Source: Candidatus Moraniibacteriota bacterium (GTDB lineage Bacteria > Patescibacteriota > Minisyncoccia > Moranbacterales > GCA-2747515). From it: a stretch of 64,000 bases of DNA. The notes under the pieces are model-generated. The model ran no database searches. It saw nothing but the letters and a program-made list of their open reading frames with translations, and was not told the origin of the DNA. The translations under genes were made by a program, and so were the position numbers. Below, one piece after another: positions 1,069 to 51,187 of the stretch (within the stretch, counting starts at the first letter, position 1; every line of letters starts with the position of its first letter). Where the stretch lies: the NCBI GenBank assembly GCA_038208115.1, contig JBBQZC010000005.1:667-64666 (forward strand), written 5' to 3'.

Positions 1069-2064
1069 TTAACGACGTTTTTTCTTGCGTTCTACTTTAA
1101 ATAGGCTGCTAAATATCAATTTTACGATGATGATACCGAGTAGACCACTACCGATAATGGCCAATCCTTTCCATGGGATGATATAGAATGTCGTTTCTCC
1201 ATCAAGTTTGATGGCGTCGTTTTCAGAATGCATCGCGAGTTTTGCTGTGTATTTCCCAAAATCCCACATGCCATATTCCAGCACTTCCCGATATTTATTA
1301 TTGATTTCTGGATAGAGGATGCGTGACTTCATCTCAACTGTGTGAAATTTTTTGCCAAATCTCGTAATCTCGATCGTGCCAAACATCGGATAATGCACAT
1401 TTCCCGTACTCTGCACCATCGCATTCATTATAATTGGCTTTTCAAAGTTCCATTTTTTTTCTACTGTGAAACTGCTCAAATCTGCACCGATACGCATCGG
1501 CTCATCACCTTGTACTGCGATAATCACAAGTGATCCAATCCTATAGCTCAAACCGATCCGTGACCCATCTCCTGATAAATCACCGCCCGTTGTGAAGAAA
1601 ACGCTGCCATAATAACCGCTCGTAGGACTATCTGCTGGGACACGCACAGTAAAATCCACCACCTTAGCCTCATCTGGCCCGAGATTAAAATCCTCTGGAA
1701 GATCAAACCAATCGATAATATCATGTGCTTTAAGGGGATGTTCAGTATCTGGGATAAAAAATTGCGGTTCAGTACCATCATCTCCGACAAAAAAGTCTTC
1801 GACACCCATGTGGACAAATAAATCTTTATCAGAATAATTTTTTACAACTATTTTACTTGTGCGCTCCTCTCCGCTGTTTAGCGTCCAGACAAATTTAATC
1901 GGTGAAATTTGTAAACCGCCCTCAGGAGGTAGATACTCCCCCGAATTAGCTTCTCCACTCTTCGTCTGTGCATATGCCGTATGAGATAGTCCACATATCA
2001 AAAAAACGGCTATACTAGCCATCAAAAAAAAATACCTTATTTTATTGATAAAAATATCTTTCAT
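1069..2064 (-). CDS. Cell-surface protein with N-terminal signal peptide and C-terminal TM anchor plus KKKRR tail (anchor subunit; paralog of 3253..4236)
   Basis: 331 aa. N-term MKDIFINKIRYFFLMASIAVFLICGLSHTAYA (signal peptide); C-term ...IPWKGLAIIGSGLLGIIIVKLIFSSLFKVERKKKRR (hydrophobic helix plus basic tail). Co-linear similarity to 3253..4236 (e.g. DWFDLPE/DWIDVPE, GSLVIIAVQGDEPMRI/GTLVLLQVQGDEPMRI). Confidence 0.7.
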   Translation of the reverse strand: MKDIFINKIRYFFLMASIAVFLICGLSHTAYAQTKSGEANSGEYLPPEGGLQISPIKFVWTLNSGEERTSKIVVKNYSDKDLFVHMGVEDFFVGDDGTEPQFFIPDTEHPLKAHDIIDWFDLPEDFNLGPDEAKVVDFTVRVPADSPTSGYYGSVFFTTGGDLSGDGSRIGLSYRIGSLVIIAVQGDEPMRIGADLSSFTVEKKWNFEKPIIMNAMVQSTGNVHYPMFGTIEITRFGKKFHTVEMKSRILYPEINNKYREVLEYGMWDFGKYTAKLAMHSENDAIKLDGETTFYIIPWKGLAIIGSGLLGIIIVKLIFSSLFKVERKKKRR

Positions 2065-3252: not shown

Positions 3253-4236
3253 CTATTTCCTTTTAGATTTTTTCCAGTCGATGATAACAAATTTTTTGAT
3301 GAATATGCGTATCGCGATCACAAGTACGATTACACCGCCAATCATCGCTGATGATTTCCATGGTATGACGAAAAAAGGCTCTGTCTCACCAGTAATTTGT
3401 ACAGTCCCCTCTTCTGAGCGCATCGTCAGAGTAGCCTTATACATCCCAAAATCCCACATACCAAAATCAATCTTATCCGTAAATAAACGGATACGCTCAG
3501 GATAGAGGTTTTCTGATTTCATTTCGACAGTTGCGAATTTTTTGTCAAATTTTGTGATTGTAATCTCTCCATCCACTTGATAGTGTACATTTGCAGTACT
3601 TTTGACACGCGTCGTGAGCTCAATCGGTTTATCCCAGAAAACTTTTTTCGCAACTGAAAATTCTTCCAATTGTCCTGCAATCCGCATCGGCTCATCACCT
3701 TGTACCTGTAGGAGGACGAGTGTCCCTACACGATAATGCACTTTGATCTTTGCACTGCCACCATCTGCATCATTTACATCAGCATCATCTGTTCGTGTTT
3801 TAAAAAATATACTTCCGTAATAACTATTAGTTGGCTGTCCTTCTGGTATTTGCACATGAAATTCTACTTCACGTGATTCTCCTGGAGCCATTGTGAACCC
3901 TTCTGGCACATCGATCCAATCAATCACATCATATGCTTTGAGTGGATGCTTTTCATCAGGTACAAAAAACTGTGGCTTGATCCCATCATCTGACACATAG
4001 AAATCTTCTACACTGATCTCAACGCCTTGTGGTACATCGGAATAATTGTGCAGTGAAATCTTCTCACTTTTTGCAGCACCATCTTCCATCTTCCAGTCCA
4101 CGCGCAAGGGTGACACTTGCACACCTTCAGTAGGTGATTCTGCAGCATATACAGGCACAACACATAGTAGCAACAAAAAAAATCCATAGGCAATGGACAT
4201 GTACGGTTTATTCATTTTTTTATCATTAATACACAT
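3253..4236 (-). CDS. Cell-surface anchor subunit paralog (signal peptide, C-terminal TM plus basic tail)
   Basis: 327 aa. N-term ...FFLLLLCVVPVYAAES; C-term VIPWKSSAMIGGVIVLVIAIRIFIKKF...KKSKRK. Paralog of 1069..2064. Confidence 0.7.
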   Translation of the reverse strand: MCINDKKMNKPYMSIAYGFFLLLLCVVPVYAAESPTEGVQVSPLRVDWKMEDGAAKSEKISLHNYSDVPQGVEISVEDFYVSDDGIKPQFFVPDEKHPLKAYDVIDWIDVPEGFTMAPGESREVEFHVQIPEGQPTNSYYGSIFFKTRTDDADVNDADGGSAKIKVHYRVGTLVLLQVQGDEPMRIAGQLEEFSVAKKVFWDKPIELTTRVKSTANVHYQVDGEITITKFDKKFATVEMKSENLYPERIRLFTDKIDFGMWDFGMYKATLTMRSEEGTVQITGETEPFFVIPWKSSAMIGGVIVLVIAIRIFIKKFVIIDWKKSKRK

Positions 4237-5109: not shown

Positions 5110-6066
5110 TTACAACACCCCCGTCGCCGTATACGTCACAGAGCCGGTGTATGTGCCTGATGCTTGTGTAGAGAGGACATTGATACGATAACAGATCCCG
5201 ATGTCTGTAGCATCGTGTGTGTATTGTGTATTAGATGTGATTGTGGTGTTTGAGTCAGGAAAAGCTGCATAGTTATTATCTGTGTCATGACACGAGTTTC
5301 CTGTACCCCATTTGGATTCTTTTTGTGGTGCATCATAGATACTGAAAGCGAGTCCTTCTCCTGTGTAACTTGTTGGTGTGTCTATTGGACTTGTGTAATC
5401 AGGGATACTGTATGATTCATTTCTTAAGACATTGCCTGACGTGAAATCATTTATTACTGAGAAGTCGTAACCGTCTTCATCGTTTGTGGTTATAGTACAT
5501 GTAGAATTTGCTGATTCTGGTGTACCTGCTGTGAGACCAGGAGTTCCTTCATCTATTGTAATGTCTCCGTTACAGGAGAGTGTGAGGTTTTCGTTGATTG
5601 TGAGGTTGATATTATTGTTATAGGTTATTGGAGTTATACTGGTTGTGAAAGATGTTTCGTTTCCATGCGTTGTACCTGCTGAGTTGGTTGCGTATGCTCT
5701 GAGATAATATTGTGTATTTGGTGTGAGAGAGGTTAATTGACAGGAGTAGTCTCCGACTCCTCCTACTCCTGCAGTGCAGGAGTTTGTATAGGATCCACTT
5801 GCTGTACCCCACTCGATGAAACGTTCTGGGTTTTCGCTTCCTGTATTACTGATGTTACCGTTTCCTGTGGCTGTGGTGTCTGAAATGTTTGATGGAGAGG
5901 TTGATGTGAGGGATGGAGCAATTACTGCTGGCTCATCAAAATAAAATTCAATTTTTGTGATACTGAGGTTTCCCCAATTCAAATATAGCCGTCCGATATC
6001 TTCATTGCTTGGATAAGATAAATTTATTTCCTGAAGATTGACATAATCATTCGCAATACCGAGCAC
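5110..6066 (-). CDS. FN3-domain plus beta-module surface protein paralog; GTG start, no signal peptide of its own; probably the downstream part of a gene interrupted by in-frame TGA (see 6073..6378)
   Basis: 318 aa. FN3-like segment ...TPNTQYYLRAYATNSAGTTHGNETSFTT, then a beta-module near-identical to 4338..4955. Start codon is GTG (rc of cac 6064-6066). Confidence 0.6.
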   Translation of the reverse strand: MLGIANDYVNLQEINLSYPSNEDIGRLYLNWGNLSITKIEFYFDEPAVIAPSLTSTSPSNISDTTATGNGNISNTGSENPERFIEWGTASGSYTNSCTAGVGGVGDYSCQLTSLTPNTQYYLRAYATNSAGTTHGNETSFTTSITPITYNNNINLTINENLTLSCNGDITIDEGTPGLTAGTPESANSTCTITTNDEDGYDFSVINDFTSGNVLRNESYSIPDYTSPIDTPTSYTGEGLAFSIYDAPQKESKWGTGNSCHDTDNNYAAFPDSNTTITSNTQYTHDATDIGICYRINVLSTQASGTYTGSVTYTATGVL

Positions 6067-18821: not shown

Positions 18822-19910
18822 CTACACACTAATTACCTCAGACTCACTTTGCATTTTAGTAATACGAATAATCTTGAATTCTCGCAAAAACATAAAAAGA
18901 ATTCGCGCAAAGAATCCAGAACTTATCCTTACAATCGGTGCAATGGATAAAAGTACAATGAAAAATGTTGAGCCAAAAATTTCAATTTGATAATCCCTCA
19001 ACATAGTATTACCCGTAATAATACGATTGACTTGTATGTCTATAAGATCACTCACTACCTGTGAAATAAGTTCGTTTCCCTGCAATGTACTACCGAGTAT
19101 TTCTGACATATTACTTCGCATTTGGATAATTGCTTGATCCTCAGCACTTTTTTTTATTTGTTCCAACGTTGCTCCTGTAATCTGTCCAGCCCATCGCACA
19201 AGCATGCCATCATCTCCCTCAACACGCTGACTATCTGCTGATGAATTGTTTTGAGATGTGTTAATGACAAAATGTAAAAATTCATCTACGGTCATTGTGC
19301 GTACTGACATATCCCCTACCATACTTTTTTGCAATAAATATTCTGCAGCTTTGTTCGATATATTTACTTGATTACTAATGTCAAATATGAAGTTCTCATT
19401 GTTTTTAATATAAAAATAATATTGACTAGAAATCACAATTACCAAAGACAGACTTACAGGGATAATTCCGCTCCGAATGATAGTTGGCATATCGATTTTG
19501 ATCAAGTTAAAGAGTGTGTGTCGCATCATATGAAATCCATATAACGCAATGCCCATCATAATTACTACTACAATAATATGTTGTAATACAGGCATAAAAA
19601 TAATACTTGGCAAAAAAGAAATCAACACAATTGGTGCAATCAATTTTTTGATACCTACAGTAACTGAAAAAACAATAAAAAAAGCTATAAAAACAGACGC
19701 TGCAATCATTGGAGCAATCCATGTGCTATGCGCAATACCCGTAATTGACCGCATAACAAGAAGAAAAAATACAGCCCCGCAACCAGTTACTATCACAGAC
19801 ATTATCATATCAAACGTACGAATTTTTTTGTGATTGTTTTTTTCACCCATATCTATATACATATATTTTATTTTATTAAATATATTATAGCATAAAATCT
19901 TTTTTTCCAT
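18822..19910 (-). CDS. Hypothetical polytopic membrane protein
   Basis: Long ORF with five or more predicted TM helices and a central soluble region. No recognisable family. True start may lie downstream of the listed Met. Confidence 0.45.
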   Translation of the reverse strand: MEKKILCYNIFNKIKYMYIDMGEKNNHKKIRTFDMIMSVIVTGCGAVFFLLVMRSITGIAHSTWIAPMIAASVFIAFFIVFSVTVGIKKLIAPIVLISFLPSIIFMPVLQHIIVVVIMMGIALYGFHMMRHTLFNLIKIDMPTIIRSGIIPVSLSLVIVISSQYYFYIKNNENFIFDISNQVNISNKAAEYLLQKSMVGDMSVRTMTVDEFLHFVINTSQNNSSADSQRVEGDDGMLVRWAGQITGATLEQIKKSAEDQAIIQMRSNMSEILGSTLQGNELISQVVSDLIDIQVNRIITGNTMLRDYQIEIFGSTFFIVLLSIAPIVRISSGFFARILFMFLREFKIIRITKMQSESEVISV

Positions 19911-46126: not shown

Positions 46127-46453
46127 AGATGTGAGAAGTAGTAATTAGGAAATAGAATATTGTAATTAATTATATGTCTATACATTATCATTCTTGCACA
46201 TTACCCACAATAAACCAATCAAATGATATTTCTTTATTTTCAATAGCTTTACTGATTTTGATCGTAAATTGATTATTATTGAAATGCTTCCCAGAGATAA
46301 AAAAGGCTAAGAGTGTGTTTTTTTGGGAAAAACATTGGGGATTTAATTATTGTTTCCTTCGTGTATTATATCATGGAAATAAATGGTGGGACAAATAAAA
46401 AAATGTGGCTGACTGATTTTCTTTCATTTTTTTATGATGTGTTTTTTGCGTAC

Positions 46454-46481
46454 AAAAAAAGACGCATTTCTGCGTCTTTTT
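46454..46481. terminator. Rho-independent terminator downstream of 46491..47198 (appears bidirectional)
   Basis: aaaaaaagacgca-tttc-tgcgtcttttt. Confidence 0.75.
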
Positions 46482-46490
46482 GACTTAATA

Positions 46491-47198
46491 TTATTTAATC
46501 CATGAAAATGAATCAAGGAGCAACTGAAAATCATGAGAAAAAAATTTATATTGTGCCTCACCACTACCACATGCAATCAGATATGCCTGCCCATCGTGTG
46601 ATGCAATCACCTGCGTCACATGTAGCGTACTTCCAAGTGGATCAACTAATAAAAAATCAACTTGCACAGCATCCTCTCTATCAATCGCAATTCGTTTACT
46701 ATGAAATTCTGACAATCCTTTCACATTTTTTCCGAGATCATTATATATTGCATCACTGATTTCTTGGTCAGTTTTTGCAAAATTGATACCTACTGCATTA
46801 TATCGGATATCACACCCTGTCCGCTGATCTGCATTAAGATGAATTCCTGCGATATAGTCATCACCATATCTATTTTGCGCATCAATATCAATTACATATT
46901 CATCCGTATAGCGAAATTTTATACCAGAATCATCATTTCTATAGCTATGATATTTCATCACTGTGATTGGAGACTGTACACGATACCCCCATAAACCAAA
47001 TTGCTCACTTATGCGCCCCCCTATTAACAACACTGCCCCGCCTAAACACAGCGCGCAAATTATTATTAATAGATTATATCGTTTTTTTTTGATGTCCAAA
47101 ACAGGAGTCACACTATCACGCGTGTTTTCTTCTGCTACAATATGATCATCATTTCTTTCTTCTTTTTTGTTTTTTTCATCTCTTTCTTGTGATTCCAT
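46491..47198 (-). CDS. Hypothetical single-pass membrane protein with an acidic N-terminus, immediately downstream of the giant repeat protein
   Basis: TM LLIIICALCLGGAVLLIGG; no family recognised. Confidence 0.45.
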   Translation of the reverse strand: MESQERDEKNKKEERNDDHIVAEENTRDSVTPVLDIKKKRYNLLIIICALCLGGAVLLIGGRISEQFGLWGYRVQSPITVMKYHSYRNDDSGIKFRYTDEYVIDIDAQNRYGDDYIAGIHLNADQRTGCDIRYNAVGINFAKTDQEISDAIYNDLGKNVKGLSEFHSKRIAIDREDAVQVDFLLVDPLGSTLHVTQVIASHDGQAYLIACGSGEAQYKFFSHDFQLLLDSFSWIK

Positions 47199-47390
47199 AA
47201 TATGATTTTATTATTGAATTTATGCTGATCTCATACTTATACTCTGATGTTAGCTACCAGAAAACCTAGCCCCAACATCAGAGAAAAGTTTTTGATTATT
47301 ACTCTTTCGTAATTATCTCACATCTTGTATATATGTGAAATGCATTTTAATAAAGAGAATATCATTTTATGCATGCATAACACAAATCTA

Positions 47391-50300
47391 TTAGTCCTTT
47401 ATCACAGCGTTCCAATCGTTACTGCCAGTACATACATATAAATATGCCTTTGTACTATTGCCCCCGACTGTTTCTGTGCCGCCATTTGTTTTGATAAATA
47501 ATTCACCTGTAGAACATCCTCCAGGGAGTGACGAACCGCTTGCGATACGTAATTTACCCGACGTAGTATCTACCGTGCCGTCTACATCAACATCCTCTAC
47601 ATTTTCGATATTCTTACCATTCATATCGATACCACCATCTGCCGTCAGTTTACCTTCGAGATTTAAACCACCCGATGCTGTAAAACCTGTGCCTGTATTA
47701 CCAATGTTTGTGATCAGATTATTATGCATGTTAATTGCGCTACGAAAATCTGAGTTACCAGTAATATCCACGCCACCAGCGATAACAGTGAGTTTATCGC
47801 CTATCGTTACCGTTCCGCCAAACGCACCGTTGCGATCAACATCCAAATCGGCATGTCCGCCACCTGAGTTTGTTACAGTTAATATCGTATGTGATCCATC
47901 ACTTAAATCTATTGAACGTGAATTATCAAAAGTAATATTTCCGTTCATTTCGATTGCAGTGAAGTCTGCATTACCATTTGCCTTTATGCCCCAATTTCCA
48001 CTATCAATTCCTACAGATGCTGAAGGATTACCGATCACAATCTTAGCAGCATCTGCTCCTGCAGTGCCGAGATTGATTATCGAAGGTGTGCCACTTGTAT
48101 TATCAGAATTCGTAAGTCCAGACAAAAAGTTGATTGCATCTGCATAAATCGTTGACCAACGACTCCCTGCCGTGCCAAGTGAACCACCAGTTATACTGCC
48201 TTCTACATGGAGATTTGCTTTGCCACCTCCTGTATTTTGGATGAATACATCAGAATCCGAACCATTATTACCAACTGAGAGCGCCATCGAATCATCTGAT
48301 GAAATAATGTCACCATTTTCTACTGTCGTGACACCATCAGTCAAAGAATTTGCACTCACATCACCAGTTGTCACAATGTCAGTTGAGCCATTGAGATCCT
48401 GTCCGATAATAGTTCCGTCTTGGATTTCATCAGTTGTTACTGCATCACTTGCAATTTTTTCATTTGTAACGCTTCCATCAGCCAATTTTACAGTTGTTAC
48501 AGCATTATCAGCGATTTTTGCAGTTGTTACTGCACCATCTGCGAGATGCGCAGGAGTGATTGCACTATCAGCAATCTTACCGCCTGTAATTGTTGCATCG
48601 GCGATTTTTGCAGTAATCACACTACCATCGGCAAGTTTTGCAGAAGTCACTACACTATCCACGATTTTAGCGGTTGTTACACTGTCGTCAGCGAGTTTAA
48701 TATCTGTAACTGCGCCATCGGCGATCTTTGCTGTTGTAATACTACCATCTACAAGATTAACTGTGACTACGGCACCATCGGCAATCTTGCCATTGACGAT
48801 TGCACCATCAATGAGCTTTATTGATGTGACGCTATTATCTGCAAGTTTTGCTGTTGTAATAATACCATCTGCAAGATCTGCAGCTTGCACTGTTCCATCA
48901 ATGATCTTTGCAGTTGTAACACTATCATCAGCCAATTTCAATGTTGTGATAGAGCCATCAGCAATTTTTGAACCAACAATTGCTGCATCCAAAATTTTAC
49001 CTGTTGTCACACTATCATCAGCAAGATGTGCTGTCGTCACTGCGAGAAATTCGATCTTTGAACTTGAAACGCTCCCATCAGCAAGTTTAATATTTGTCAC
49101 TGCATTATCTGCAATTTTTGTTGTTATGACACTCCCATCAGCAAGTTGAGTCATTGCAATCGCACCATCAGCGATTTTGCCTCCAGTGATTGTACCATCT
49201 TGGATCTTTGATGTGATGATACTGCCATCAGCAAGTTTCGTGGAAATAATTGCACCATCTGCAATTTGCAATGAACCCACACCGCTATCAGCAATACCAA
49301 TTGTATCAACTCCCACTTCGATACCTGTACCTGCGCCGACATTTAATGTCACTGTGCCAATATTACCTCCCCCAGTCATACCGTCTCCAGCAACAACATC
49401 AGTAATAGACGTAATGAGCGAAGAAATCGTCCATGTACCATCCATATTATTTGTAACAGAAGTATTTGGTCCTGCCACTATCGATTTAACCATACTTCCA
49501 TCAGAAGCAAGTTTATCACCAGTCAATGTACCGTCTGCAACTTGTGCGCCAGTGATCGTTCCTATGACCTTAGACGCACCAATACCAGTAATCCACGTCG
49601 GATCACTATATGTGCCTGTTGTGTACACACCATTTGTAACAGTATCTGCATTTCCAAAAAGATTTCCTGTCACATCACCAATAACATTACCCATAAGATC
49701 ACCGACAAAAGCTAACGCTGTGATACTTCCTGTAGTCGTCGCGTTGCCGCCGGCGATTGTCATTGTTCCATCAGTAAAAGACAACGCATTGATTGCGCCT
49801 GTTGTATTGATTGTGATATCTGCTGCAATCTTATTACCCGTAATTTCTTGATCACCAATCTTTGCATTTGTGATTGCACCATCAGCAATTTTTGCCGTAA
49901 CTACACTACCATCTGCCAGAGAAATTGTTGTAACCGCACCGTTTGCAAGCTTACCACTTGTAACTGCACCATCTTCGATCTTTGCAGTAGCAACGGCACC
50001 ATCAGATATCTTAATACCAGTTACTGCATTATCAGCGATCTTTGCTGTTGTAATTGCATCATTTTCGATTTTACTTGTTGCTACACTACCATCAGCTAGT
50101 TTTGTGCCAACGACAGCGCCATTTTCGATCTTTGCAGTTGTAACGCTTCCATTTGCCAATGTGACAGACAATATTGCACCATCAGCAATTTTACCTGATG
50201 TGATCGTACCATCCACTAATTTTGCACCAACAACCGTTCCATCCGCCAATTTCATTCCAACAATTGCACCATCACGCAAATCAGATGATTTGATTTTACC

Positions 50301-50567
50301 TTTCAAGTTCAGTTTTTTATATGCGATATTTGCGTTATTTGACACATCCTTATTCGTGATGCGTCGTGATATCACTTCGATATAATTTGCACCTTGTTGA
50401 AAATATCCTATAACCTTTTCTTGACGTGTTTTAGCCTCTACTGAAGCAAAAACTGACCCAAAAACAACCAAGGCACAAAAAAAAGCTCCTGTGACTCTGG
50501 TCATTTTGGAGTAACCCCGTTTTTGAGAAATTGAAGATTTATTACTTCTTTTTTCCGTAACGCTCAT
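47391..50567 (-). CDS. Giant secreted repeat protein: signal peptide, ~60 tandem degenerate 10-aa repeats (consensus K-I/L-A-D-G-A/S-V-T-T/S-A), and a distinct C-terminal ~150-aa domain
   Basis: 1058 aa. MTRVTGAFFCALVVFGSVFASVEA signal peptide (probable true start at MTRV, around nt 50504). Long runs of KLADGSVTTAKIADGAVT... . Antisense frames are also open, as expected for a repeat gene. Confidence 0.75.
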   Translation of the reverse strand: MSVTEKRSNKSSISQKRGYSKMTRVTGAFFCALVVFGSVFASVEAKTRQEKVIGYFQQGANYIEVISRRITNKDVSNNANIAYKKLNLKGKIKSSDLRDGAIVGMKLADGTVVGAKLVDGTITSGKIADGAILSVTLANGSVTTAKIENGAVVGTKLADGSVATSKIENDAITTAKIADNAVTGIKISDGAVATAKIEDGAVTSGKLANGAVTTISLADGSVVTAKIADGAITNAKIGDQEITGNKIAADITINTTGAINALSFTDGTMTIAGGNATTTGSITALAFVGDLMGNVIGDVTGNLFGNADTVTNGVYTTGTYSDPTWITGIGASKVIGTITGAQVADGTLTGDKLASDGSMVKSIVAGPNTSVTNNMDGTWTISSLITSITDVVAGDGMTGGGNIGTVTLNVGAGTGIEVGVDTIGIADSGVGSLQIADGAIISTKLADGSIITSKIQDGTITGGKIADGAIAMTQLADGSVITTKIADNAVTNIKLADGSVSSSKIEFLAVTTAHLADDSVTTGKILDAAIVGSKIADGSITTLKLADDSVTTAKIIDGTVQAADLADGIITTAKLADNSVTSIKLIDGAIVNGKIADGAVVTVNLVDGSITTAKIADGAVTDIKLADDSVTTAKIVDSVVTSAKLADGSVITAKIADATITGGKIADSAITPAHLADGAVTTAKIADNAVTTVKLADGSVTNEKIASDAVTTDEIQDGTIIGQDLNGSTDIVTTGDVSANSLTDGVTTVENGDIISSDDSMALSVGNNGSDSDVFIQNTGGGKANLHVEGSITGGSLGTAGSRWSTIYADAINFLSGLTNSDNTSGTPSIINLGTAGADAAKIVIGNPSASVGIDSGNWGIKANGNADFTAIEMNGNITFDNSRSIDLSDGSHTILTVTNSGGGHADLDVDRNGAFGGTVTIGDKLTVIAGGVDITGNSDFRSAINMHNNLITNIGNTGTGFTASGGLNLEGKLTADGGIDMNGKNIENVEDVDVDGTVDTTSGKLRIASGSSLPGGCSTGELFIKTNGGTETVGGNSTKAYLYVCTGSNDWNAVIKD

Positions 50568-50743
50568 ATATGATATATGATTAATAATAACGCAGTCAAT
50601 GAAATGAAAACTTCATTGAAAACCATTCATTATACACCATAAGTTACATTATGTCAAGTATATGTCTTAATGTAAATTCAATAATCTTCTCAAAAAAACA
50701 GACTCTATGAAGAATTATTCTTCATAGAGTCTCTTACCCAGAA

Positions 50744-51187
50744 TTAGAGACGCTCCATAACCTCGATGATTACTGGCTTATCCCTATAATACGCTTTGAT
50801 CTCTTTGATTGCTTTCTCAACTCGTCTTCTACCAAATGGGTCAAAAAACATTCGCGCAAGCATGCCTTGTGCTGATACTCGTCGTCTTGCATAATGCCAC
50901 CCGTTTTTGTCATATGCCACATACGTGATGCCATTTTCTCGATGCTCTACGCAAGCATCATCTTGCACAATGCACGAAGGCTGAAGTGATATCCGACTGA
51001 TATCCAGCCTGCAAACATCAGATAGGATTTTTGCCGCTAGATCGGGACTTTCAAAAAAATACCCGGACGACGTTGTAAATGATTTTTTTTTACTCATTCT
51101 TTGAAACTCCCTTTGTAGAAATGACTCTAAAAAAATAATACACAAGTTATAATTATATTTTATATTTTTTATATTGTCAATATTCAA
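50744..51187 (-). CDS. Hypothetical protein (probable start at the internal MSKKK Met, around nt 51097)
   Basis: ORF only; no family recognised. Confidence 0.4.
   Translation of the reverse strand: MNIDNIKNIKYNYNLCIIFLESFLQREFQRMSKKKSFTTSSGYFFESPDLAAKILSDVCRLDISRISLQPSCIVQDDACVEHRENGITYVAYDKNGWHYARRRVSAQGMLARMFFDPFGRRRVEKAIKEIKAYYRDKPVIIEVMERL

What the first reader, a model, noticed from the sequence alone, without database searches (positions are those of the whole stretch)
46491..50567. 1058-aa secreted protein built from ~60 tandem 10-residue repeats (K-I/L-A-D-G-A/S-V-T-T/S-A), with a downstream membrane partner
After a signal peptide, the protein is almost entirely a degenerate decapeptide repeat (KLADGSVTTAKIADGAVTDIKLADDSVTTAKI...), suggestive of a beta-helix or beta-roll fibre. 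It ends in a non-repeat ~150-aa Cys-containing domain (...GGCSTGELFIKTNGG...YLYVCTGSNDWNAVIKD). An acidic single-pass membrane protein (46491-47198) follows in the same operon and shares its terminator. I could not place the repeat in a known family (it is not Hep_Hag, RTX or pentapeptide). This looks like a second candidate adhesin or fibre.
Basis: seen in the sequence. Interest (0 to 1): 0.6.

Follow-up and report, generated by a model that had tools for sequence, protein, structure and literature searches.

The report
Phage-tail-fibre-like surface fibre with partner
An ultrasmall (Moranbacteria-type) bacterium encodes an exported protein built like a phage tail fibre, always next to a small membrane-anchored helper protein; the pair is probably a cell-surface fibre for attaching to other cells, an undescribed variant of a known kind of protein.

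Summary
The 1058-aa ORF (47391-50567, minus strand) and the 235-aa ORF after it are real. There are 44-45 in-register decapeptides, not about 60. They form two gap-free blocks (aa 99-248 and 437-726), which is 43% of the protein. The non-repeat C-terminus is 328 aa, not about 150.

The repeat can be placed. It is the shaft repeat of many phage tail fibres (PHROG tail-fibre families, E about 1e-86; 166 phage records). Relatives carry weak hits to Pfam "Decapeptide" (PF25296). It is not pentapeptide, RTX or Hep_Hag.

The gene is not in a prophage. It has a signal peptide, its own consensus promoter and housekeeping neighbours. Relatives in Moranbacteria/Parcubacteria keep it in different chromosomal contexts.

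The C-terminal region has no Pfam, PHROG or PDB match. It combines a conserved stem with interchangeable two-cysteine tips.

The downstream protein has a charged N-terminal tail, one membrane helix and a confidently modelled PsbP-fold outer domain. It directly follows the fibre gene at all 11 relatives' loci examined.

Best reading: a probably trimeric surface fibre with a dedicated anchor or assembly partner, analogous to Bdellovibrio MAT fibres. Trimer state, surface location and adhesion are inferred.

The parts
50700..50732 (-). Terminator-like hairpin (15 bp stem plus T-run) ending the upstream small ORF. It marks the upstream boundary of the fibre unit.
50629..50657 (-). Perfect sigma-70 consensus promoter (TTGACA-17-TATAAT), about 60 nt upstream of the fibre start codon.
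   Evidence: a consensus match only; function not tested
47391..50567 (-). Fibre gene, 1058 aa, acidic (pI 4.5), rich in G/T/A/I/D/S/V.
   Evidence: orthologues with 70% and 59% identity over the full length
50433..50567 (-). aa 1-45: long basic n-region, hydrophobic core (aa about 28-44) and a VEA|K signal-peptidase-like site. Read as a Sec signal peptide, or possibly an uncleaved N-terminal anchor.
   Evidence: hydropathy; the same layout in orthologues. No signal-peptide predictor was available.
50274..50432 (-). aa 46-98: conserved N-proximal segment (invariant Y62, I70, D74, I81, YKKLxLK 83-89, IK 92-93). Candidate base or docking region.
   Evidence: a similar N-terminal start in the distant relative P0178
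49824..50273 (-). Decapeptide shaft 1: 15 in-register units, aa 99-248.
49260..49823 (-). aa 249-436: non-decapeptide insert (GNxxGN runs, NADTVTNGVYTTGxYxDPxWI motif, a small beta-rich module at 360-393). Candidate knob or hinge.
   Evidence: no Pfam or PHROG hit when scanned alone
48390..49259 (-). Decapeptide shaft 2: 29 in-register units, aa 437-726.
47568..48389 (-). aa 727-1000: distal stem. It includes the near-invariant SDSDVFIxNxGxGxANLxVEG...GSRWSTIYADxINFLxGLTNxDN block and NIGNxGTDFTxSGGLxLxG units.
   Evidence: close homologues only in Moranbacteria; more distant matches to parts of it in other large proteins
47394..47567 (-). aa 1001-1058: type-A tip, LPGGC(1018)STGELFIKT...AYLYVC(1046)TGSNDW. 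It holds the only two Cys of the mature protein. Relatives replace it with a different two-Cys tip.
47242..47283 (-). Intergenic hairpin (-22 kcal/mol) without a T-run, inside the 192-nt fibre-partner spacer. Absent from relatives, whose spacer is 1-32 nt.
   Evidence: spacers
46491..47198 (-). Partner gene, 235 aa. Charged N-terminal tail (1-41, KKKR before the helix, so N-in), one TM helix (about 42-67), PsbP-fold outer domain (about 70-235) with invariant C129 and C210.
46453..46481 (-). Intrinsic-terminator-like hairpin plus T7 run, directly after the partner gene.
   Evidence: sequence; fold. The scan did not list it, probably because its stem extension absorbs the T-run (my inference).

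Best explanation
This is a two-gene surface module of a Moranbacteria-type (CPR/Patescibacteria) bacterium.

Gene 1 encodes a Sec-exported fibre built like a phage tail fibre. In order it has: a conserved N-proximal base, two rigid shafts of 15 and 29 gap-free decapeptide repeats separated by a knob or hinge, a lineage-specific distal stem, and a small exchangeable tip with two cysteines.

The shaft most likely assembles as a homotrimer, as do the phage proteins that carry the same repeat. The tip is the likely ligand-binding and/or trimer-registering end.

Gene 2 encodes a membrane-anchored protein with a PsbP-fold domain outside the cell. It most likely docks the fibre base to the cell, or chaperones fibre assembly after export.

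The probable role is attachment to, or recognition of, another cell or surface. This would suit the host-dependent lifestyle of cultivated CPR bacteria.

Shown: gene structure, repeat anatomy, homology of the repeat to phage fibre shafts, non-phage context, mosaic tips, the partner's fold and topology, and strict synteny.

Inferred: trimer state, surface display, what the partner does, and adhesion.
For: Repeat anatomy: two perfectly in-register blocks, z = 12-16 against shuffles.

Phage-fibre homology of the repeat:
- phrog_28766 E = 1.9e-86, phrog_892 E = 1e-84, and further tail-fibre PHROGs.
- tblastn finds 166 phage records, with matches annotated as tail fiber or minor tail protein.
- A profile of the repeat finds only two significant PDB chains. 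One is cyanophage P-SCSP1u fibre gp28; the other is Legionella phage LME-1 orf16, which by chain length and context I take to be the head-decoration protein. Both proteins are described as trimers (PMC10575957, PMC12407071).

Cellular rather than viral:
- Neighbours are EF-Tu, NDK, ComEC, NrdR, CopA, MnmA, Dus, RecG, DnaK and AddA.
- The protein has a signal peptide and its own consensus promoter.

Conservation: the fibre + partner pair is adjacent in the window and at 11 relatives' loci, with several different cellular flanks. The loci are L001, L002, L004/L008, L005, L006, L007, L009, L010, L011, the P0004 contig, and the P0001/P0133 contig, for which adjacency is inferred from the shared 4822-bp contig.

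Mosaic tips on a conserved stem, and variable shaft composition between relatives.

Partner: AF2 pLDDT 86.6. Foldseek's top hits are PsbP (E = 8e-9, TMt 0.70-0.75), followed by the envelope or chaperone members LpqN, MTC28, Apa, EagT6/SciW and DcrB.
Against: - No structure supports the fibre model. The AF2 monomer model is unusable (mean pLDDT 42), and Foldseek on it found nothing.
- In both PDB entries with the repeat, the repeat-bearing distal part was not resolved, so the repeat's fold is not experimentally known.
- Trimerisation could not be tested with these tools.
- There are no expression, localisation or binding data.
- The lifestyle of this organism is inferred from its relatives' names only.
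- The partner's role rests on synteny and fold class. PsbP-fold proteins have many functions.
- In this genome the pair is separated by 192 nt containing a hairpin and a promoter-like site, so co-transcription here is not certain.
Confidence: 0.5

Rival explanations
1. It is a structural surface-coat or spacer protein (an S-layer-associated fibre) with no specific ligand. The PsbP-fold protein is simply its membrane anchor.
For: Perfect consensus promoter, suggesting high expression. Sec signal, acidic G/T/S/N-rich composition, and only two Cys. Conserved in many relatives next to a membrane-anchored partner.
Against: Interchangeable C-terminal tips on a conserved stem and two fibre paralogues in tandem in some genomes resemble diversification of a binding end rather than a uniform coat. 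The shaft repeat is otherwise typical of receptor-binding fibres.
Confidence: 0.2
2. It is a phage or prophage tail-fibre gene (a virion component, or a remnant of one) that happens to sit in this chromosome.
For: Very strong matches to PHROG tail-fibre families and to annotated tail fibres of many phages.
Against: All phage similarity lies in the repeat-containing part (query aa about 42-791). Nothing matches the C-terminal 260 residues. The non-repeat segments have no PHROG hit. There is no phage gene in the 64-kb window among the ORFs scanned. An N-terminal signal peptide is not expected of a virion fibre (my knowledge). The gene sits in several different housekeeping contexts but always with the same non-phage partner.
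Confidence: 0.07
3. The decapeptide is a disguised double pentapeptide. It folds as a single-chain right-handed quadrilateral beta-helix (20 residues per turn), making a monomeric rod or a pentapeptide-repeat-like binding protein rather than a trimeric fibre.
For: Weak hits to pentapeptide models: NCBIfam HetL E = 0.0026, designed pentapeptide proteins E about 0.01, and PF13599 sub-threshold in relatives. Lag-20 identity is slightly above lag-10 in block 2 (0.448 against 0.388), and K-I/K-L roughly alternate.
Against: There is no lag-5 periodicity (0.088-0.097 against 0.10 in shuffles). PF13599 scores 12.8 bits against a cut-off of 38. Lag-30 is as high as lag-20. AF2 did not produce a confident beta-helix, whereas from my experience real pentapeptide proteins usually model confidently. 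The phage proteins with this repeat are trimers.
Confidence: 0.12

Closest known systems
Phage tail-fibre shafts carrying the same decapeptide repeat. Examples: T7-like cyanophage fibres such as P-SCSP1u gp28 and S-TIP37; mycobacteriophage and Gordonia minor tail proteins; PHROGs 28766, 892 and 21412.
   Same: The same 10-residue unit (xDGxVTxxK[IL]A) in long gap-free runs. Elongated modular proteins with variable C-termini.
   Different: The window protein has a signal peptide and no virion-attachment N-terminus; there is no hit to the T7-tail, Prophage_tail or S74 domains that some homologues carry. It is not in a phage genome. Its stem and tip are lineage-specific.
Bdellovibrio bacteriovorus MAT (mosaic adhesive trimer) fibres (PMC10769870)
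   Same: Cellular, exported, phage-tail-fibre-like fibres. They have a conserved N-terminal cell-proximal part, a long shaft and exchangeable C-terminal tips, and one tip has a single disulphide. A bacterium that lives on other bacteria uses them to recognise its prey.
   Different: No detected sequence relationship. The MAT capping-loop motif VG[GN]xxxPxxxL is absent and there is no S74 domain. The shaft here is a decapeptide repeat. A dedicated adjacent PsbP-fold partner is not mentioned in the passages of that paper I read.
Pfam PF25296 'Decapeptide repeat region', and NCBI 'beta strand repeat-containing protein' of Bacteroidota and others
   Same: Many of the >3400 homologues carry precomputed PF25296 and/or DUF5907 hits. 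Several are named this way and sit in cellular contexts.
   Different: The query itself gives no PF25296 hit even at E <= 10. Three relatives re-scanned score 25-28 bits against a cut-off of 45. The Bacteroidota-type example examined has no PsbP-annotated gene downstream.
PsbP / Mog1 / DUF1795 fold superfamily (PsbP, LpqN, MTC28, Apa, EagT6/SciW, DcrB), for the partner
   Same: Confident fold match of the outer domain. Like LpqN and DcrB it is tethered to the outer face of the membrane. Like EagT6/SciW it is encoded next to the large exported protein it may serve.
   Different: 11-18% sequence identity to the leading PDB matches. It is tethered by an N-terminal TM helix with a charged cytoplasmic tail rather than a lipid anchor. 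No photosystem or T6SS context. The close family is seen only in Moranbacteria/Parcubacteria.

Membership tests
Pentapeptide repeat proteins (A[D/N]LXX; Pfam Pentapeptide clan) | 5-residue periodicity of the sequence | tested here: not met
   Lag-5 identity is 0.088-0.097 against 0.10 in shuffles (z about -0.1 to -0.9). Lag-10 gives z = 12-16.
Pentapeptide repeat proteins (A[D/N]LXX; Pfam Pentapeptide clan) | Match to a Pfam pentapeptide model above its gathering score | tested here: not met
   No hit on the whole protein. PF13599 scores 12.8 bits against a cut-off of 38 on block 2 alone. The A[DN]L motif occurs 3 times.
RTX beta-roll | Nonapeptide GGxGxDxUx repeats | tested here: not met
   Period is 10, not 9. 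There is no GGxGxD motif and no Pfam hit.
Trimeric autotransporter adhesins (Hep_Hag / YadA-like) | Hep_Hag/HIM head or stalk motifs and a C-terminal YadA membrane anchor | tested here: not met
   No Pfam hit of any kind on the whole protein or its C-terminal 328 aa.
Pfam PF25296 Decapeptide repeat region | 10-residue tandem periodicity | tested here: met
Pfam PF25296 Decapeptide repeat region | HMM match at or above the gathering score (45 bits) | tested here: inconclusive
   No hit on the query at E <= 10. Relatives P0005, P0014 and P0027 score 25-28 bits. Many homologues carry precomputed hits.
Phage tail fibre (PHROG 28766 / 892) | Significant match to the family profile | tested here: met
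   E = 1.9e-86 and 1e-84, in 6 and 9 stretches. The non-repeat segments alone give no match.
Phage tail fibre (PHROG 28766 / 892) | Encoded in a phage or prophage among tail or baseplate genes, with a virion-attachment N-terminal domain | tested here: not met
   Housekeeping neighbours only. The N-terminus is a signal peptide. No T7-tail or Prophage_tail domain.
Bdellovibrio MAT fibres | Beta-helix capping-loop motif V-G-G/N-pi-x-x-P-x-x-x-L, and an S74 or alternative tip on a trimeric beta-helix | tested here: not met
   Motif absent, SDxRxK absent, no Peptidase_S74 hit. The motif definition comes from PMC10769870.
Bdellovibrio MAT fibres | Homotrimeric intertwined fibre | not testable with these tools
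   Only monomer prediction was available, and it failed (pLDDT 42).
PsbP-fold (Mog1/PsbP/DUF1795-like) proteins, for the partner | The alpha/beta PsbP fold | tested here: met
   AF2 pLDDT 86.6, above 95 through the domain. Foldseek against PDB: PsbP 2xb3 E = 8.1e-9; 32 hits at E <= 1e-3, all in this superfamily.
Pfam PF18933 PsbP_2, for the partner | HMM match at or above the gathering score (27 bits) | tested here: inconclusive
   The window protein scores 22.9 bits, E = 9.4e-5. Several orthologues carry precomputed PF18933 hits.

The most novel reading that the evidence does not exclude
Moranbacteria, and perhaps other CPR lineages, carry a dedicated two-component host-recognition device. 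It consists of a phage-derived trimeric fibre with swappable disulphide-locked tips, which is docked on or folded by a membrane-anchored PsbP-fold protein encoded immediately downstream. The tip type would then help determine which host cell the symbiont can attach to. The PsbP-fold partner would be a new class of extracytoplasmic fibre anchor or chaperone.
Probability: 0.3. Interest if true: 0.65.

Novelty: new variant of a known kind. Interest (0 to 1): 0.4.

Why it matters
How uncultivated CPR/Patescibacteria recognise and hold on to their hosts is largely unknown beyond type IV pili. This is a conserved, strongly promoted fibre gene with exchangeable tips and an obligatory partner gene, so it is a concrete, testable candidate for host attachment. 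It could be tested by tip-host co-occurrence in metagenomes, by binding assays with a recombinant tip, and by cryo-ET.

It also gives a clean cellular example of the widespread 'decapeptide' tail-fibre shaft repeat. I could find no solved structure in which that repeat is resolved. The long gap-free runs here (15 and 29 units) would make a good construct for solving it.

Tried and rejected
- AF2 monomer model of the full fibre with a 13-sequence alignment: mean pLDDT 42, unusable. Foldseek on it against PDB gave nothing below E = 1.
- Pfam and NCBIfam on the whole protein and on five sub-segments: nothing meaningful.
- PHROGs on the non-repeat segments: nothing.
- PDB profile search with the C-terminal region: no hit at E <= 10.
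- Pfam on nine distant relatives of the distal stem: nothing.
- Literature searches for 'decapeptide repeat' with tail fibre, PF25296, and PF18933 with CPR: nothing relevant.
- AFDB50 fold search: library unavailable.
- Does the partner co-vary with tip type, as a tip-specific chaperone would? Partners of the two type-B-tip loci are 58% identical to each other and 32-40% to the others. This cannot be separated from shared ancestry with so few genomes.
- GTDB genome scan for the partner: only 3 loci, so the distribution outside Moranbacteria/Parcubacteria is unresolved.
- Prophage, RTX, Hep_Hag and canonical pentapeptide readings were considered and rejected (see the membership tests).


Full report
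**What is there**

The region holds two same-strand ORFs. One is a 1058-aa ORF at 47391-50567 (-), the other a 235-aa ORF at 46491-47198 (-).

The large ORF is preceded by the terminator of the upstream small ORF (50732-50700). A perfect TTGACA-17-TATAAT promoter match follows at 50657-50629.

The two ORFs are separated by 192 nt. This spacer contains a -22 kcal/mol hairpin without a T-run (47242-47283) and a promoter-like site. A hairpin followed by seven T's comes directly after the small ORF (46453-46481).

**The repeat**

Identity at lag 10 is 0.41 in aa 95-254 and 0.39 in aa 432-730, against 0.10 in shuffled sequence (z = 12.6 and 16.4). Lag 5 shows nothing.

A position matrix built from the units finds 15 units at aa 99-248 and 29 at aa 437-726. 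Every one sits exactly 10 residues from the next. One isolated unit lies at aa 345.

The consensus is D-G-[AS]-[VI]-T-T-x-K-[IL]-A.

However, there are about 45 units rather than about 60, and they cover 43% of the protein. A 188-aa insert separates the two blocks, and the non-repeat C-terminus is 328 aa.

At the DNA level the units are only 55% identical on average. Tandem Repeats Finder reports one short array at this period, plus two unrelated short ones. This is an old, degenerate protein repeat and not a slippage-prone DNA array.

**Placing the repeat**

Pfam and NCBIfam give nothing significant on the query.

PHROGs gives very strong matches to tail-fibre families: phrog_28766 at E = 1.9e-86, phrog_892 at 1e-84, and many more.

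tblastn against 50,697 phage records finds 166 records. They are T7-like cyanophages and phages of Mycobacterium, Gordonia, Lactobacillus and others. The matches fall on genes annotated as tail fiber or minor tail protein, and always within query aa about 42-791.

In the 5.8-billion-protein collection, more than 3400 proteins match. Many carry precomputed Pfam PF25296 'Decapeptide repeat region', DUF5907, Pentapeptide_4, Phage_fiber_2, T7-tail, Prophage_tail or S74 domains. Three that I re-scanned have sub-threshold Decapeptide hits.

A 40-column profile of the repeat finds only two significant PDB chains:
- The fibre gp28 of cyanophage P-SCSP1u (8i4m).
- orf16 of Legionella phage LME-1 (9eg4), which I take to be the head-decoration protein.

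Both proteins are described as trimers. In both, the distal, repeat-bearing part was too flexible to model (PMC10575957; PMC12407071). The repeat's fold is therefore not experimentally established. A trimeric shaft is an inference from these relatives.

**Not a phage gene**

Every scanned neighbour in the window is housekeeping: EF-Tu, NDK, an MBL-fold protein, ComEC, YggU, NrdR, CopA, a DsbD/HMA/cupredoxin protein, MnmA, Dus, RecG, DnaK, AddA, CorA, CysRS, IspH and others. No tRNA or Rfam element was found.

The protein begins with a basic stretch, a hydrophobic core and a VEA|K site. Orthologues have the same layout.

The nearest named relatives come from Candidatus Moraniibacteriota/Moranbacteria and from a 'Parcubacteria group' genome. 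I therefore infer that the window is from such a CPR bacterium. An identical stretch exists in another public assembly.

**Architecture and mosaicism**

Alignment with orthologues (70, 59, 48 and 47% identity in the multiple alignment A1) gives this layout:
- Signal peptide, aa 1-45.
- A conserved N-proximal segment, aa 46-98.
- Shaft 1.
- A non-repeat insert containing the NADTVTNGVYTTGxYxDPxWI motif.
- Shaft 2.
- A strongly conserved distal stem (SDSDVFIxN..., GSRWSTIYADxINFLxGLTN, NIGNxGTDFTxSGGL units).
- A roughly 58-aa tip whose C1018 and C1046 are the only cysteines of the mature protein.

Relatives keep the stem but carry a different tip. The alternatives are type B (GSDGNxCxIxxxHGIITGTxCP) and a third variant. 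Relatives also differ in shaft content, for example extra roughly 30-aa GNAATVTDGVY units in L004 and L007.

The stem and tip have no Pfam, PHROG or PDB match. Close homologues are confined to Moranbacteria.

An exhaustive profile search found more distant proteins:
- P0178 and P0201 have the same GxRWSTIYAD motif and a similar ...P.G...C..G.I..D.......C.G..W ending.
- P0153, P0162 and others reiterate the NIGNAGTDFTxSGGL unit.
- None of the nine distant hits I scanned, among them P0153, P0162, P0178 and P0201, has a Pfam family above its cut-off.

**The partner**

The 235-aa protein has a charged N-terminal tail that ends in KKKR, a single helix, and a C-terminal domain modelled at pLDDT above 95.

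Foldseek places that domain in the PsbP fold (2xb3 E = 8e-9). Next come the bacterial envelope or chaperone members LpqN, MTC28, Apa, EagT6/SciW and DcrB.

Pfam PsbP_2 is just sub-threshold on the window protein and is recorded on several orthologues. C129 and C210 are invariant in 18 sequences.

The gene directly follows the fibre gene at every related locus examined, with a spacer of 1-32 nt:
- L001, L002, L004/L008, L005, L006, L007, L009, L010, L011 and the P0004 contig.
- The P0001/P0133 contig, by inference from the shared contig length.

The flanking genes differ among these loci. This holds for fibres of 459 to more than 1300 aa and for all tip types. Two of the contigs have two fibre genes in tandem before one partner.

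A decapeptide-repeat protein from another lineage, also in a cellular context, has no PsbP-annotated neighbour.

**Mechanism proposed**

After Sec export the fibre probably trimerises into a rod. Two stiff decapeptide shafts are joined by a knob or hinge, and the variable tip points outward.

The conserved base, or the stem, would engage the PsbP-fold outer domain. That domain either tethers the fibre to the membrane or assists its folding outside the cell. The latter is the role that downstream assembly proteins play for phage fibres (my knowledge).

The closest functional analogue is the Bdellovibrio MAT fibre family (PMC10769870). This protein is not a member of it: the capping-loop motif and the S74 domain are absent.

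**Rivals**

- A non-adhesive surface-coat role.
- A monomeric pentapeptide-like helix. This is weakly suggested by the HetL and Pentapeptide_4 hits and by a small excess of lag-20 identity. It is contradicted by the absent lag-5 signal and by the failed monomer model.
- A phage remnant, which context contradicts.

**Verdict**

The repeat itself is already known. The Moranbacteria-specific stem and tips, and the obligatory PsbP-fold partner, are to my knowledge undescribed. I rate this as a new variant of a known kind, with moderate interest of 0.4.

Noticed in passing
window 50744-51187 (-): A small ORF lies between CopA and the fibre gene. It has no Pfam, NCBIfam or PHROG match. A perfect TTGACA-17-TATAAT match (51180-51152) lies inside the listed TTG-start ORF, so the real start is probably the internal Met (MSKKKSF...). 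The ORF has its own 15-bp-stem terminator (50732-50700). It is not conserved next to the fibre in relatives.
   Followed up: partly
L009 2098-6380 and L010 1403-5685: Two fibre-family genes (898 aa and 459 aa) lie in tandem upstream of a single PsbP-like partner gene. The 459-aa one has only a few decapeptides and a third tip variant.
   Followed up: partly
L007 1707-5943: The fibre of Parcubacteria group bacterium GW2011_GWD2_38_11 is split into 233-aa and 1157-aa ORFs at a duplicated GNLFGNADTATFATTSANADTVTD segment. This is either a frameshift or pseudogene, or an assembly error in repeats.
   Followed up: no
L011 2257-5001: A 2.7-kb stretch without called genes lies directly upstream of the 279-aa 'stem + tip only' protein P0126. 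The N-terminal part of that fibre was probably missed by gene calling or is disrupted.
   Followed up: no
proteins P0149 (4580 aa), P0151, P0153, P0162: The roughly 40-aa unit of the distal stem (NIGNAGTDFTxSGGLTLAxxL...GG) is reiterated many times in other large proteins. The ones I scanned (P0151, P0153, P0162) have no Pfam family above its cut-off. This looks like an uncatalogued repeat family.
   Followed up: partly
window 47242-47283 (-): A strong hairpin (12 + 5 bp, -22 kcal/mol) without a T-run lies in the 192-nt fibre-partner spacer. The spacer is 1-32 nt in all relatives, so this is an insertion specific to this genome. Its role is unknown (attenuator, RNA-processing site or repeat element).
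   Followed up: partly
partner model against BFVD: The best viral structural matches of the PsbP-fold partner are prophage 'lipoprotein' and 'host cell surface-exposed lipoprotein' entries (E about 1e-5). No tail-fibre chaperone was among the matches.
   Followed up: no
window 3253-4236 (-), 1069-2064 (-), 5110-6066 (-), 18822-19910 (-): Four other ORFs of 318-362 aa have no Pfam assignment above threshold. One has a sub-threshold WxL-interacting-protein peptidoglycan-binding domain (24.8 bits against 27.3).
   Followed up: no
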